DNA of 64,000 nt from Bispira polyomma (taxonomy: Eukaryota): positions 8,680,001-8,744,000 of the forward strand of contig OZ287751.1 in assembly GCA_965649765.1 (NCBI GenBank). The letters are read 5' to 3'. Shown one piece after another: positions 59,401-64,000 of this stretch. Every line of letters starts with the position of its first letter. Position 1 is the first letter of the stretch. A program made the position numbers.

Positions 59401-62400
59401 CTACTACTAAAAAGGCCTCAGGTACTATTGGTGCACTTGTTTTGGGCGGTGGAGAAAGAAAAAAATTAATTACTGATTGTGTTGTTGGCGGCTGTGGTGG
59501 ATTAAAAGTCACTACCAGACATCTTAGAAACAGGACTCTGTGGTGAAACTTAAATTTAAAGAACCAAAAAAAAAAAACAACCCCAAAAAAATGTACATAA
59601 TCTAGATCTAGATCGGTCTAGATCTAATATATTTGGTGTGTAACATTTGAAGCTGATATGTATATATATATATGTACATTCATAGTAACTAGATTTGATA
59701 ATATACATTATACAGAATTTTGTTCCCCTTTATTGGATTACATACACAAAAAACCTGTGATAAATGTGGTTGTTCTTTGATAGAAGGAGTCAGGAGCAGA
59801 GATTTGAACTGTTATACACAAAACACACACACACACAGCTGAAGTCACTAGGTATAAAGACTGGTCAAACTCTATCACATATCTTGAATCTGGATTATTA
59901 CAAGGATTGACTTCAGCTCCTGTGTATATGTACGTGTGATTATCCATATATGTTTTGTGGTTGGACATACAAGTCATTATTTCATCGGTTTGTAGAAATA
60001 GTGAAAAGCAACTGTTATCGAAACATAGAGGAGTTGTTGGCAGAGTTACTACCATCATATTTAAAGTGACAATAAAATAAACTAAGAAAAAATTATTTTC
60101 TTTGGGATTTGTATTTCTTTTGTGTACATGATTTGATGCATTAAAATTTGGATTTAAAATCGTGTATGCCACTGAACATTATACAATGGGATATGAACAC
60201 CAAATATAATAAATATAGAATGTTGTATGAGGTTCACAATATGAATATTTAAACTGTCACTCCACTCAGATAACTGGATTTATCTTATATAGACAGAGTA
60301 CCTTTAATCAGCTGTACTTATTATATGTCACCAGGATAATGGCTACCTATGCAAACACCAGATATTTGTGCCGTCTTCAGCTGACGTGCCTTATATGGCT
60401 GGTAGGAGTGACCTTGACCTTGTGCTTGCCTTCAGGTCCGGAATCTCAGTTTACATTCCTCCACTCGAAACAAGCCCAGTTTGCCAAGGACTTGCAGAAC
60501 TATCAAATTACCATTCCAGAGAAAGTGACAAAAACTGGCACATTTCTTTCACATAGTGTCAACCACGTGTTACCTGCATTACGTCATAAGCGGAGCCTTG
60601 GGTTCACACAGAGCACACTGGATGGTGATCTTTTGGAGCAAATTCATTACAAATTAAAGGTGGATAATAAAAACTTACATTTAGAACTGCAGCCCAATGA
60701 TAAGCTTATATCTCCAGGCTTTGTGATCGAAAGAAGAAACAAAGGTTATCAGAATCTCTCCCATGCCAACATTAAAGCTTATCCACAGAATAAGTGTCAC
60801 TATGTTGGTAAAGTGAAAGGAGATCCATTGTCCCAGGTTGCCCTGGCCACATGTGATGGCTTACATGGGCTAATAAGTACAACCGATGGTCAGTATATGA
60901 TAGAACCACTCAAAGTAAACAATGCAGACAGTTCAGCAAAACATGCCCATTTGATATACAACAGAACATCCTTACCTGCACATCTAGACGTACAGCAAAG
61001 TTCCAACAGATTGCCCAAAGATCAACATTTAAAATCTGACTCGTGTGGAGTAGAAGAAAGCTATGGTCAAATTCTGAAAGAAAGGGATACTTGGCAAAGA
61101 GAAAACCACCAGGAAACAAAAAAGAATCGTCGCAGAAAGAAGAGGTCATTCAGTGTGGAGAGGTATGTTGAAGTGATGGTGGTAGTTGACAAAGATATGA
61201 TGGAGTATTACGAGAATGATGATGTAGAAACTTATGTGCTTACCATAATGAACATGGTCTCCATGCTCTACCATGATTCATCTATAGGTAATGCCATCAA
61301 TGTAGTTCTTGTGAATATGATGTTGATGGACTATGAGGAGAAACAACTGAAAATCACCCACCATGCCGATAACACACTCAGAAGTTTCTGTAAGTGGCAG
61401 AAGTCAATAAACCCAAAAAAGGATTCTGATCCCAATCATCACGATGTGGCTGTTTTAATAACAAGACGTAACATCTGTTCAAAACGCAATGAGCCATGCA
61501 GTACCTTAGGCCTGTCTCAAGTGAATGGTCTGTGCCAGCCTCATAGGAGTTGTAACATTAATGAAGATACTGGATTGTCACTGGCATACACAGTGGCCCA
61601 TGAGCTCGGACATAATTTTGGGATGCAACACGATGGACCAGAAAATGGCTGTCAACCCAAAACAGGGAAATATCAGCTCATGATGTCTGCTCAACTTAAT
61701 GCAGAGGCCTGTCCTATGGTCTGGTCCCCATGTAGTGAAGCTGCTATCACTAAATTCCTTGACAGAGATTGGGGTTTCTGCCTGGACGATGAACCATTGA
61801 ATCATGACTTTTATCTGGACGAGCGACCGCCAGGGATAAAGTATGATGCTGAACACCAGTGCAAATTACAGTATGGCGATGATGCCACATTTTGTGAAGG
61901 AATCGACAATCAGTGTTCCACTCTTTGGTGCAGAGTTCAGAACAAATGCATGACCAGATTGGAAGCTGCAGCTGAGGGTACTATTTGTGGAGATAACAAG
62001 TGGTGTTCTGGTGGTAAATGTGTAACCCAAGGAGAATCTTCTATGTCTCAGAATGGTGAATGGGGAGAATGGGGTTCTTGGTCAAAATGTAGCCGACCAT
62101 GTGGAGCTGGGGTGGCTTACACGGAAAGACATTGTGATAATCCAAGACCAAAGAATGGTGGCAAGTACTGCCTGGGGGAAAGAAAGCGATTTAGAATTTG
62201 TAACACAGATGCATGTGCAGAAGACAGCCCAAGTTTCCAGCATATTCAGTGTTCTGATTTCAACGGTATACCATATAAGGGGCAGTATTATAAGTGGGAG
62301 TATGTTGTGAATCCAAGGACACCGTGCCAATTACACTGCCGTCCTAAAGGGCACTTCTTTTCTGTAATGTTAGCAGATATTGTGAAAGATGGTACTCCCT

Positions 62401-64000
62401 GTTCTAACAAAGGGGCACGGGCCATGTGCATCAGTGGCATTTGCCGACAGGTAGGGTGTGATTGGGACATAGACTCAGAAGCCCTAGAGGATGGTTGCGG
62501 TGTATGTAGAGGTGACGGTTCAACTTGTAAAACTGTTAAGTCTAAGTTTGAGAAGGAACAAGGACTTGGTTATGTAGAAGCTACAGTGATACCTATGGGA
62601 GCAAGAAACATCCGCATTGAAGAAGTGGCAGAATCTAATAATTATCTTGCTGTACGTAATGATGAAGGAGAGTATTATCTTAATGGAGGATGGTTTATTC
62701 AGTGGAATGGTGAATATGAAGCTGCAGGAACTGTCATGTCGTATGAGAGAGATGGAGACAAAGAAATGCTAAGTGCTCCTGGACCTCTGAAAGAACCTTT
62801 ACATATAATGTTACTCTTCCAGTCTGAAAACCCTGGAGTGGAGTTTGAATTTACTGTGCCTAAGATTAATACGACAGATCAGAGAGCACCCGAGTTCAAA
62901 TGGATATACAGTGACTGGACTCATTGTACACAGTCATGTGGAGGTGGGAATCAAAGATCCCAAGTAGCGTGCAGCGACCTAGAACTGGGCATTGTTTCAG
63001 ATCGGTACTGCAATATAAGCACCATGCCAGAAGACATGATGAGGGCATGTAATGAGCATCCTTGTCCACCGAGATGGTGGCCTGGACACTGGCAACACTG
63101 CTCCATTAGTTGTGGAGGAAATGGTGTTAGACGTAGAACTGTCCTCTGTGTGAGAAGTTCTGGTAACGGAGTTCATGAAGCACTAGATGACTCTCAATGC
63201 AAGGCTATGAAGAAGCCAGATGAACAGGAACTGTGCAAACATAACCCCAAATGTGAGACAGCTGGGATCTGGGAGGAAGGACCATGGTCAAGCTGTACAT
63301 TAACTTGTGATGGAGGAATCCAGAGGAGGAGTGTATTGTGTCAAGATGAGTCAGGTTGTTCTACGGATGACAAGCCAGCTTCTGAAAGGACTTGCAATCC
63401 GAATCCTTGTATCAATAGTGAGGCCATCACACAACCACAATCGGATCAAGGATTCCTACCAAATGCCAATACAGAAACTTTTAAAGTCTGGAATTTTGGA
63501 TCCCAAGAAAAAAATCAAACTGTAAAGAAATGGAAAAGAACTGGTCAGCTCAAGCTGGGCACGACTAAAGTAAAAGATAACTTCAGAAAGCTGAATGTAG
63601 CACGCGATATACCAAAATCAGATATGCCTACAGTGGAAGAAGATTTCATGCTAGTTGACCCTAAAGGTGTTTTGTCGAGTAATGTTAAACCATCCTCAGA
63701 TCAATATATCTGGGTGCCACTGCCCTGGAATGTCTGTTCTGTATCCTGTGGTGGAGGACAAAAACAACGGGAAGTTAAATGTTTCCACAAGCATACGCTG
63801 GAAGAATCGCAGGACAGAAATTGTCAGGAATTAGATAAACCTACAAATTCTGCAGAATGTAATGATGAATCTTGTGTTCACTGGGCAACAGGACAGTGGG
63901 GTGATTGCTCAAAGACTTGTGACAATGGCTACAGAACCAGAAATGTTAACTGTGTACAGCAAGGAACGCCAGGAGTGCCAAGTGAGAGTTGTGACGAAAA

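What the first reader, a model, noticed from the sequence alone, without database searches (positions are those of the whole stretch)
60339..64000. Intact, intronless ADAMTS7/12 gene (probable retrogene), absent from the ORF track
Seen: at least 3.66 kb of uninterrupted ORF from signal peptide into the sixth TSR, with an intact HExxHxxGxxH motif and no stops or frameshifts. Known: animal ADAMTS7/12 genes are normally split into roughly two dozen exons. This genome clearly keeps long introns (innexin) and has active retroposition (SINEs, L2, U6 copy). Inference: a retrocopy retained under purifying selection, possibly replacing the intron-rich parent.
Basis: partly seen in the sequence, partly recalled or inferred. 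Interest (0 to 1): 0.75.

Follow-up and report, generated by a model that had tools for sequence, protein, structure and literature searches.

The report
Intron-free ADAMTS protease gene, invertebrate genome
The last 3.66 kb of the window is the start of a real gene for a secreted ADAMTS matrix protease, written without a single intron; this is unusual for the family, but a similar event is already described in it.

Summary
Window 60339-64000 (+) is one open frame of 1220 codons with no stop, while the other five frames carry 43-111 stops; the chance probability is about 1e-35. It encodes a complete ADAMTS front end with an intact zinc site, in this order: signal-like N-terminus, propeptide, furin-type site, catalytic domain, disintegrin-like domain, TSR1, Cys-rich domain, spacer, three TSRs, a 100-residue Cys-free linker, TSR5, and a sixth TSR cut by the window end. 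Nothing in it is an intron.

The gene was missing from the ORF track only because the ORF lister omits ORFs that run off the window.

The literature shows ancient introns shared by worm, fly and chordate ADAMTS genes, and one intron-free retroposed founder, the ADAMTS1/4/5/8/15 clade. The intron-free state here is therefore derived and best explained by reverse transcription of a spliced mRNA.

No hallmark of retroposition could be tested. The ADAMTS7/12 label rests on domain order alone, and the linker is not mucin-like.

Verdict: a real gene and a new member of a known kind. The retrogene reading is plausible but unproven. Interest is modest.

The parts
60339..64000 (+). Open reading frame of an ADAMTS pre-pro-protease, 1220 codons, cut by the window end (stop codon not in view)
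   Evidence: 0 stops in 1220 codons against 43-111 in the other five frames; P about 1e-35. 13 Pfam families matched. PDB: ADAMTS13 2.2e-89, ADAMTS5 7.4e-85, ADAMTS1 2.2e-69.
60339..60437 (+). Signal-peptide-like N-terminus (residues 1 to about 33)
   Evidence: Hydrophobic core at about residues 9-24 by Kyte-Doolittle sliding mean. No Pfam domain. No dedicated predictor was run.
60504..60818 (+). Reprolysin-family propeptide (residues 56-160)
   Evidence: PF01562 3.3e-20, profile 1-93 of 93.
61134..61145 (+). Furin-type proprotein-convertase site RKKR (residues 266-269), just before the catalytic domain; a second RHKR lies at residues 82-85
   Evidence: Motif scan. The rule that all ADAMTS carry such a site comes from passages of PMC4448532.
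61161..61796 (+). M12B (reprolysin) catalytic domain (residues 275-486)
   Evidence: PF01421 1.8e-30, profile 1-200 of 200. Ungapped-in-register alignment to ADAMTS5, ADAMTS1 and ADAMTS13 chains.
61599..61634 (+). Zinc-binding motif HELGHNFGMQHD (residues 421-432)
   Evidence: It aligns to the same motif in ADAMTS5 and ADAMTS1.
61830..62024 (+). Disintegrin-like domain (ADAMTS_CR_2, residues 498-562)
   Evidence: PF17771 3.2e-19, profile 1-69 of 69.
62064..62216 (+). Central thrombospondin type 1 repeat, TSR1 (residues 576-626)
   Evidence: PF00090 best stretch 576-626, profile 1-49 of 49. 6 Cys.
62277..62528 (+). ADAMTS cysteine-rich domain (residues 647-730)
   Evidence: PF19236 2.3e-9.
62532..62861 (+). 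ADAMTS spacer 1 (residues 732-841)
   Evidence: PF05986 2.9e-29, profile 1-115 of 115.
62901..63065 (+). TSR2 (residues 855-909)
   Evidence: PF19030 1.2e-12, profile 1-55 of 55, on the fragment alone. 6 Cys.
63075..63254 (+). TSR3 (residues 913-972)
   Evidence: PF19030 4.2e-13. 6 Cys.
63270..63410 (+). TSR4 (residues 978-1024)
   Evidence: PF19030 1.5e-10. 6 Cys.
63411..63710 (+). Cys-free linker of 100 residues between TSR4 and TSR5, at the place where ADAMTS7/12 carry their mucin/proteoglycan domain
   Evidence: 0 Pfam families at E<=0.01. 0 Cys; S+T+P 22% against 17.7% protein-wide. The frame is open over 100 codons, P about 0.0013 using the 0.064 per-codon stop rate.
63711..63875 (+). 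TSR5 (residues 1125-1179)
   Evidence: PF19030 9.4e-15, profile 1-55 of 55. 6 Cys.
63882..63998 (+). TSR6, first part only (residues 1182-1220), cut by the window end
   Evidence: PF19030 3.7e-11, profile 1-39 of 55. 4 Cys so far.
48794..48987 (+). Context: first coding exon of an innexin gene on the same strand, 11.35 kb upstream. Its next exon is not in the window, so the ADAMTS ORF may lie inside its first intron.
   Evidence: PF00876 3.6e-16, profile 1-45 of 333. ATG and CAG|GTAGGT donor read. 0 of 95 downstream + strand segments of 28-61 aa match any family.

Best explanation
The stretch is the first 3.66 kb of a working gene for a secreted ADAMTS zinc metalloprotease.

Inferred from the family's known biology: the protein enters the secretory pathway through its N-terminal signal. 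It is held latent by its propeptide. A furin-type convertase frees it at the RKKR site in front of the catalytic domain. It then cuts extracellular-matrix proteins, using the HExxHxxGxxHD zinc site. The disintegrin-like, TSR, Cys-rich and spacer modules and the TSR tail bind substrate and matrix.

Shown: all of these modules are encoded in one uninterrupted exon.

Shown in the literature: ADAMTS genes of nematode, fly and chordates share ancient introns, and each tail TSR normally has its own exon.

Inferred: the intron-free state is therefore derived. It most likely arose by reverse transcription of a spliced mRNA. That could have been a retroposed copy at a new place, or a cDNA that overwrote the original gene. 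The reverse transcriptase would have come from elements like those seen elsewhere in the window.

Inferred: the gene is either kept by selection or very young.

Its domain order is closest to the ADAMTS7/12 type.
For: ADAMTS identity and intactness:
- Open frame of 1220 codons, P about 1e-35.
- Full ordered set of ADAMTS Pfam domains.
- One continuous alignment of residues 276-793 to ADAMTS13, and of 271-633 to ADAMTS5.
- In my reading of the alignment, eight catalytic-domain cysteines line up with those of ADAMTS5. The domain has 9 Cys in all.
- Zinc motif and two furin-type sites are present.
- 6 of 6 Cys in each of the 5 complete TSRs.

No intron:
- In 6 of 6 TSRs the W-motif is directly followed by the CxxxC motif. 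Nicholson et al. place the tail-TSR exon borders so that each exon begins with the C(S/T)XCG motif and ends with the W4XW motif (PMC549037, passages).
- The one stretch without a Pfam match inside the tail (the linker) is open over 100 codons, P about 0.0013.

Precedent:
- An intron-less retroposed founder of ADAMTS1/4/5/8/15 (PMC549037; PMC4448532, passages).

Selection or youth:
- 578 of 10980 possible single-base changes in the ORF create a stop. Under neutrality, P(no nonsense) is 0.15 at 1% divergence, 0.02 at 2% and 0.0001 at 5% (uniform mutation, indels ignored).

Reverse transcriptase in the neighbourhood:
- Two RT-bearing stretches, a four-copy SINE-like repeat and a degenerate U6 copy.

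Domain order of the 7/12 type:
Against: - No hallmark of retroposition was seen or could be seen. The 3' end (stop, poly(A), downstream target-site duplication) is beyond base 64000. The repeat search of 56000-64000 gave only short matches of 14-107 nt, none of which brackets the gene.
- No parent gene was found. tblastn of the protein against window 1-60338 gave nothing better than E 0.96. The rest of the genome could not be searched.
- G+C rises within about 100 nt of the ATG, so no long co-transposed 5' UTR is evident.
- Expression and selection are untested.
- The age of the intron loss is unknown. If all relatives in the phylum share it, this is an old state and not a notable event.
- Introns may exist in the 5' UTR or beyond the window.
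- Subfamily: the linker is 100 aa and not mucin-like. The Atlas nearest clusters were ADAMTS9, 14, 20, 1, 5, 8, 3 and 17 for the whole protein, all at 0.96-0.98. For the ancillary part they were ADAMTS8a (0.95) and ADAMTS-like/THSD4 (0.93), with ADAMTS7 only at rank 7 (0.91).
Confidence: 0.6

Rival explanations
1. Old, lineage-wide intron-poor orthologue. The gene sits at its ancestral locus and lost its introns long ago, stepwise or by cDNA-mediated conversion. The state is shared by a whole class or phylum, and introns may remain in the UTRs or in the unseen 3' part. It is not a duplicate and nothing was 'replaced'.
For: - No parent copy in the 60 kb upstream.
- No visible co-transposed 5' UTR.
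- The protein is well diverged from every solved vertebrate ADAMTS yet perfectly intact, as expected for a long-selected gene.
- PMC4349717 (passages) says most vertebrate ADAMTS groups have protostome counterparts. The authors warn that their strict selection may have discarded lophotrochozoan genes with a different history.
Against: - Complete absence of introns over all domain borders is the pattern that the literature attributes to a single reverse-transcription event, not to piecemeal loss (PMC549037).
- The neighbouring innexin gene keeps at least one long intron, so the genome is not generally intron-poor. That rests on one gene only.
Confidence: 0.25
2. Young processed pseudogene. This is a recent retrocopy without a function of its own that has simply not yet been hit by a disabling mutation.
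For: An intact frame is expected for an unconstrained copy if it differs from its source by well under 1-2%: P(no nonsense) is 0.68 at 0.2% and 0.38 at 0.5%. Retroposition looks active in this genome.
Against: - The copy is full length from the start codon, with a good start context.
- Retrocopies made by LINE machinery are often 5'-truncated (recalled).
- A 3.66+ kb frame is a large target.
- G+C at third positions (0.381) is close to the flank (0.29-0.35), as for a long-resident sequence. That is weak evidence.
Confidence: 0.1
3. Artefact. cDNA or transcript-derived sequence was built into the genome assembly, so the missing introns are not real.
For: Only the general fact that a spliced sequence in an assembly can come from cDNA contamination. 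Nothing in the calls points to it.
Against: - The ORF is continuous with 60 kb of ordinary AT-rich, repeat-bearing genomic DNA, with no N run anywhere.
- There is no gap, adaptor-like or poly(A) junction at its 5' side.
Confidence: 0.03

Closest known systems
Vertebrate ADAMTS7 / ADAMTS12 (COMP-cleaving, proteoglycan ADAMTS clade)
   Same: - The same module order as far as the window reaches: pro, catalytic, disintegrin-like, TSR1, Cys-rich and spacer, then exactly three TSRs, a non-TSR stretch, then further TSRs.
- The clade's architecture as described in PMC4349717 and PMC4448532.
   Different: - The interposed stretch is only 100 aa, has no Ser/Thr/Pro enrichment (22% against 17.7%) and no Cys, so it is not a mucin domain by composition.
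- Only 2 of the expected 4 distal TSRs are in view, and the PLAC module is not.
This one has none over 3.66 kb.
- Phylogenetic membership is untested.
Founder of the chordate ADAMTS1/4/5/8/15 clade (retroposed, originally intron-less ADAMTS gene)
   Same: An ADAMTS gene lacking all ancient family introns, explained by reverse transcription of a spliced mRNA (PMC549037; PMC4448532).
   Different: - That event is placed early in chordate or deuterostome evolution. Its descendants regained introns at new positions and lack the PLAC domain (PMC4349717).
- I recall that they carry a short tail of 0-2 TSRs.
- Here the gene is in an innexin-bearing (non-vertebrate) genome, has at least 5 tail TSRs and is still intron-free.
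ADAMTS9/20 and GON-1 type (long TSR tail, GON module)
   Same: Many tail TSRs. The Atlas nearest cluster for the whole protein is named ADAMTS9 (0.98).
   Different: All named Atlas clusters score 0.96-0.98, so that rank says little. The GON module and TSR number cannot be checked, because the window ends in TSR6.
Processed retrocopies / retrogenes in general
   Same: An intron-free copy of a gene from an intron-rich family, in a genome with reverse-transcriptase elements.
   Different: Poly(A) tail, target-site duplications and the parent gene (the defining marks) are all unobserved.

Membership tests
ADAMTS protease family | M12B catalytic domain with HExxHxxGxxHD zinc site | tested here: met
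   PF01421 1.8e-30 over the full profile. Motif at residues 421-432. Aligned to ADAMTS1, ADAMTS5 and ADAMTS13 chains.
ADAMTS protease family | Propeptide with at least one furin-type convertase site | tested here: met
   PF01562 3.3e-20. RHKR at 82-85 and RKKR at 266-269. The rule is from PMC4448532 passages.
ADAMTS protease family | Fixed ancillary order: disintegrin-like, central TSR, Cys-rich, spacer | tested here: met
   PF17771 at 498-562, PF00090 at 576-626, PF19236 at 647-730, PF05986 at 732-841. One continuous alignment to ADAMTS13 M-D-T-C-S, residues 276-793.
ADAMTS protease family | Secretion signal | tested here: inconclusive
   Hydrophobic N-terminal core by hydropathy only. No signal-peptide predictor among the tools.
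ADAMTS7/12 clade | Three TSRs after the spacer, an interposed non-TSR domain, then four TSRs | tested here: inconclusive
   Three TSRs, a 100-aa stretch with no Pfam match, then TSR5 and part of TSR6. The remaining TSRs would lie beyond the window.
ADAMTS7/12 clade | The interposed domain is a mucin/proteoglycan domain (feature called unique to the clade in PMC4448532) | tested here: not met
   S+T+P 22% against 17.7% protein-wide, 100 aa. Composition is only a proxy. Glycosaminoglycan attachment cannot be read from sequence.
ADAMTS7/12 clade | C-terminal PLAC module | not testable with these tools
   The C-terminus is beyond base 64000.
ADAMTS7/12 clade | Groups with ADAMTS7/12 in a phylogeny | not testable with these tools
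None of the 52 PDB sequences matched is named ADAMTS7 or ADAMTS12. Atlas leads do not discriminate.
Retrogene (processed retrocopy) | Lacks the introns of its family or parent | tested here: met
   One open frame through all domains and through 6 of 6 W-motif/CxxxC junctions. Ancient family introns per PMC549037. The parent's own structure is unknown.
Retrogene (processed retrocopy) | 3' poly(A) tract and flanking target-site duplications | not testable with these tools
   The 3' end is outside the window. The 5'-side repeats found are short and unpaired.
Retrogene (processed retrocopy) | An intron-bearing source gene elsewhere in the genome (or evidence of its loss) | not testable with these tools
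   None in window 1-60338 (best tblastn E 0.96). No animal genome collection was open. The genome-contig scan returned 1 locus from 22 pattern matches, a bacterial M12B-like gene at 24% identity.
Functional gene (as against pseudogene) | Intact frame, expression, purifying selection | tested here: inconclusive
   Frame intact. The neutral-survival estimate argues for selection or an age below about 1-2% divergence. Expression and dN/dS are not testable here.

The most novel reading that the evidence does not exclude
A second, independent retroposition in the ADAMTS family, this time in a protostome lineage. It would have produced a full-length, still intron-free and functional ADAMTS7/12-type gene that lies in the same orientation inside the first coding intron (more than 15 kb) of an innexin gene and has taken over from its intron-rich parent. 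That would be a living picture of the stage that the chordate ADAMTS1/4/5/8/15 founder is thought to have passed through.
Probability: 0.12. Interest if true: 0.55.

Novelty: new member of a known kind. Interest (0 to 1): 0.3.

Why it matters
The founding of a whole ADAMTS clade (1/4/5/8/15) is attributed to one ancient retroposition. That event is known only from its intron-repopulated descendants.

An intact, intron-free ADAMTS gene in an invertebrate would offer several things if it proves to be a retrogene of datable age. It would be a second natural example in the same family. It would show what such a gene looks like before introns return. It would also let one ask whether a 4-5 kb multi-domain matrix protease can be functionally replaced by its retrocopy.

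For annotation there is a practical point. Gene finders tuned to intron-rich models, and ORF lists that drop end-running ORFs, will miss or split this gene.

If relatives all share the state, it is an ordinary lineage feature.

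Tried and rejected
1. Intron-bearing paralogue in the window. tblastn of the 1220-aa protein against window 1-60338 gave 4 hits, the best at E 0.96. None is credible.

2. Marks of retroposition. The repeat search of 56000-64000 found 21 direct-repeat families (20 listed) and 24 inverted pairs. All were 14-107 nt, and none was usable as a target-site duplication without the 3' end. No poly(A) is in view.

3. Subfamily by Atlas. Two calls (10, 44) gave named ADAMTS clusters of many clades at near-equal scores. They do not discriminate.

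4. Subfamily by solved structures. 52 sequences matched at E<=1e-5. Only ADAMTS1, 4, 5 and 13 are among the ADAMTS chains.

5. Orthologues on contaminant contigs. One genome-contig scan gave 22 pattern matches and 1 confirmed locus, L001. It is a bacterial M12B-like gene with 24% identity over residues 277-475. It is irrelevant and I did not study it.

6. Virus- or transposon-carried gene. I rejected this.
- 0 Pfam families in 10 of 10 open segments of at least 100 aa between 40.9 and 60.2 kb.
- Among 117 segments of 62-99 aa, only one family matched (Innexin, 1 segment).
- 0 of 95 short + strand segments matched anything.

7. The linker as an in-frame intron. I rejected this: an open frame over 100 codons has P about 0.0013 at the stop rate.

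8. Innexin exons by a recalled short motif. There were no hits, so I replaced that test with Pfam scans.
- Rows dropped: 22 of the 139 segments of 62-99 aa. 10 overlapped the retroelement and 12 overlapped the ADAMTS ORF.
- Not scanned: segments of 45-61 aa outside 48.9-60.3 kb, or on the minus strand.

9. Literature searches:
- 'ADAMTS'+'intronless': 29 papers, 20 listed.
- 'ADAMTS'+'retrogene': 45 papers, 15 listed.
- 'ADAMTS'+'Lophotrochozoa': 22 papers, 15 listed.
- 'ADAMTS'+'single exon'+'invertebrate': 6 papers.
- 'ADAMTS'+'intron loss': 1 paper.

Judged from titles and abstract starts, none describes an intron-free invertebrate ADAMTS gene. This is no proof of absence.

Papers actually read:
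- PMC549037: passages, and section 7 part 1.
- PMC4349717: passages.
- PMC4448532: passages.

All other papers were seen only as search listings. Supplements were closed. Additional File 2 of PMC549037 (intron positions) and the additional figures of PMC4349717 (trees with lophotrochozoan sequences) could bear on both the intron argument and the subfamily.

10. Not run:
- Structure prediction and fold search, because sequence matches already fix the fold and they cannot speak to introns or origin.
- The bacterial promoter/terminator scan, which is the wrong kind of organism.

- The search for homologous proteins, the search of protein representatives, metagenome contigs and viral contigs.
- So there is no orthologue set, no phylogeny, no dN/dS and no search for a parent gene.

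12. Operators' notes:
- The window holds no N, so nothing was filled.
- I took no contig for human.
- The only spliced model (innexin) was searched exon by exon. One exon was found. The joined step was left out.

Full report
**1. The observation**

Window 60339-64000 (+) translates into 1220 codons without a stop. The five other frames of the same stretch hold 43-111 stops. With the local composition (G+C 0.432, stop probability 0.064 per codon), an open run of this length has P about 1e-35.

- The ATG at 60339 is the first after the in-frame stop at 60228.
- G+C jumps from about 0.29 to 0.46 within about 100 nt of it.
- G+C by codon position is 0.495, 0.42 and 0.381, the pattern of real coding sequence.
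- The ORF is missing from the ORF listing because that tool, by its own description, omits ORFs that run off the source. None of the 5 ORFs listed for 58000-64000 is this one. 'Absent from the ORF track' is therefore an artefact of the track.

**2. What it encodes**

Pfam finds the complete ordered ADAMTS set:

| Module | Pfam | Residues |
|---|---|---|
| Propeptide | PF01562 | 56-160 |
| Reprolysin catalytic domain | PF01421 | 275-486 |
| Disintegrin-like | PF17771 | 498-562 |
| Central TSR | PF00090 | 576-626 |
| Cys-rich | PF19236 | 647-730 |
| Spacer | PF05986 | 732-841 |
| ADAMTS-type TSRs | PF19030 | five stretches |

Scanned as separate fragments, the tail resolves as follows:

| Part | Residues | Result |
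|---|---|---|
| TSR2 | 855-909 | PF19030 |
| TSR3 | 913-972 | PF19030 |
| TSR4 | 978-1024 | PF19030 |
| Linker | 1025-1124 | no Pfam match |
| TSR5 | 1125-1179 | PF19030 |
| TSR6 | 1182-1220 | profile 1-39 of 55, cut by the window end |

Against solved structures, the best matches are ADAMTS13 (2.2e-89, one continuous stretch over residues 276-793), ADAMTS5 (7.4e-85), ADAMTS1 (2.2e-69) and ADAMTS4 (1.9e-60).

Other features:
- The zinc motif HELGHNFGMQHD is intact.
- Furin-type sites sit at residues 82-85 and 266-269.
- Each of the 5 complete TSRs has 6 Cys.
- The N-terminus has a signal-like hydrophobic core (hydropathy only).

The protein should work as ADAMTS enzymes are known to work. It would be secreted as a zymogen, activated by a proprotein convertase and use zinc-dependent cleavage of matrix proteins, with targeting by the ancillary modules. 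This follows from family knowledge (PMC4448532, passages), not from a test here.

**3. No intron**

The alignments to human ADAMTS chains run through the metalloprotease, disintegrin-like, TSR1, Cys-rich and spacer modules with only small gaps.

[quoted passage not shown] Here the W-motif is followed directly by the CxxxC motif in 6 of 6 TSRs, so none of those junctions is interrupted.

The only tail stretch without a domain match, the 100-codon linker, is open in frame (P about 0.0013 at the stop rate). It is therefore coding, not an in-frame intron.

**4. Why this is a derived state**

PMC549037 (section 7 part 1) reports intron positions shared between worm, fly, Ciona and vertebrates. [quoted passage not shown] PMC4448532 repeats this.

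By the same logic, the gene here most likely went through a reverse-transcribed intermediate.

The window shows that reverse transcriptase is around:
- A 3.9-kb RT/RNase-H-like element and a second RT fragment.
- A SINE-like repeat in 4 copies at 83-92% identity.
- A degenerate U6 copy.

**5. What is not shown**

The marks that define a retrocopy are a poly(A) tract, target-site duplications and a parent gene. All lie outside what could be examined.
- The 3' end is beyond base 64000.
- Repeats around the 5' side are short and unpaired.
- There is no ADAMTS-like sequence in window 1-60338.
- No animal genome or protein collection was open.

I therefore cannot separate three histories: a retroposed duplicate, a cDNA-mediated overwrite of the original locus, and an old lineage-wide state.

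Function is inferred only from intactness. 578 of 10980 possible single-base changes would create a stop. A neutral copy would stay free of nonsense with P 0.15 at 1%, 0.02 at 2% and 0.0001 at 5% divergence (uniform mutation, indels ignored). The gene is therefore either selected or very young.

**6. Subfamily**

The order 'three TSRs, a non-TSR stretch, more TSRs' is the one described for ADAMTS7/12 (PMC4349717; PMC4448532).

Against that:
- The feature called unique to that clade, a mucin/proteoglycan domain, is not evident. The linker is 100 aa with S+T+P at 22%, against 17.7% for the whole protein.
- PLAC is out of view.
- Atlas leads point to many clades at 0.91-0.98.

I file it as an ADAMTS gene of 7/12-like architecture, not as a proven member.

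**7. Context**

On the same strand, 11.35 kb upstream, lies the first coding exon of an innexin gene (48794-48987). It matches PF00876 at 3.6e-16, profile positions 1-45 of 333, and ends in a CAG|GTAGGT donor.

No further innexin match exists on the + strand up to the ADAMTS start:
- 0 of 95 segments of 28-61 aa.
- None among the longer segments.

If that gene is intact, its first intron exceeds 15 kb and contains the ADAMTS ORF. It also raises the possibility of nested genes, which cannot be tested here.

**8. The virus-like stretch (description only)**

Window 12091-16024 (+) is an A-rich stretch (AT skew 0.17-0.26) with three successive open frames.
- Only the last has Pfam matches: RVT_1 at 1.1e-8, and RVT_3 (RNase-H-like) at 3.1e-4, just under its cut-off.
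- No protease, integrase, endonuclease or capsid family was found at E<=1.
- There are no direct or inverted repeats of at least 60 nt in 8000-20000.
- There is no PDB match at 1e-3.

It is a retroelement of undetermined class. There are two changes of frame between the three open frames. Without relatives I cannot say whether these are native junctions or damage.

**9. Verdict**

This is a real, intact, intron-free ADAMTS gene. It is a new member of a known kind, with a family precedent for the proposed mechanism. The claim that would make it notable (a lineage-specific, functional retrogene that replaced its parent) remains open and needs the data listed under next steps.

Noticed in passing
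window 48794-48987 (+), and 48950-49490: First coding exon of an innexin gene (Pfam 3.6e-16, profile 1-45 of 333) with a consensus-like GT donor, phase 2. The last ~40 nt of the exon and the first ~30 nt of the intron recur several times downstream. TRF reports an array at 49121-49488, period 154, 2.4 copies. Translated segments there are 42-88% identical. No next exon is present in the window, so the ADAMTS ORF may be nested in this intron.
   Followed up: partly
window 60333-60338: An AG dinucleotide lies 4 nt before the ADAMTS ATG. An exon starting after it would be in frame with the phase-2 donor of the innexin exon. This is a one-in-three coincidence and no evidence of a fusion transcript. 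I counted it by hand and made no joined sequence.
   Followed up: no
window 12091-16024 (+): Retroelement (the virus-like stretch). It has three successive open frames. RT and RNase-H-like matches occur in the last frame only. No LTR of at least 60 nt lies nearby, the sense strand is A-rich, and there is no PDB match. Class undetermined. Described only.
   Followed up: partly
window 9813-10436 (+): Separate fragment with the C-terminal part of a reverse-transcriptase domain (RVT_1 6.3e-7, profile 128-205 of 205). Probably a truncated LINE-like copy.
   Followed up: no
window 5515-5624 (+): U6 snRNA-like copy: full model length, 56.2 bits against a gathering score of 44. It has several changes, including one inside the conserved ACAGAGA box. 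More likely a pseudogene or retrocopy than the working U6 gene.
   Followed up: partly
window 7832-8032 (-), 26402-26567 (+), 43804-43969 (+), 52887-53161 (+): Dispersed repeat of about 170-200 nt in four copies at 83-92% identity. SINE-like. ARAGORN finds no tRNA gene in the window.
   Followed up: no
window 33761-34689 and 2929-3360: Two tandem arrays: units of 62 nt (array of about 930 nt) and of 71-75 nt (about 430 nt).
   Followed up: no
whole window: Strong CpG depletion everywhere. Observed/expected is 0.35 in the ADAMTS ORF, 0.32 in the 10 kb upstream and 0.35 window-wide. In my recollection, depletion this even is unusual for an invertebrate with mosaic methylation.
   Followed up: no
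window 58395-58416 and 59277-59298: Inverted pair with poly-C and poly-G arms 860 nt apart, about 1 kb upstream of the ADAMTS start. An A-rich tract at about 59566-59593 looks like the tail of a retroposon. Neither was examined further.
   Followed up: no
L001 10001-10573: A bacterial chromosome (contig OZ244043.1) encodes a protein 24% identical to the ADAMTS catalytic domain, residues 277-475. It is a distant M12B-like relative and irrelevant to the finding.
   Followed up: no
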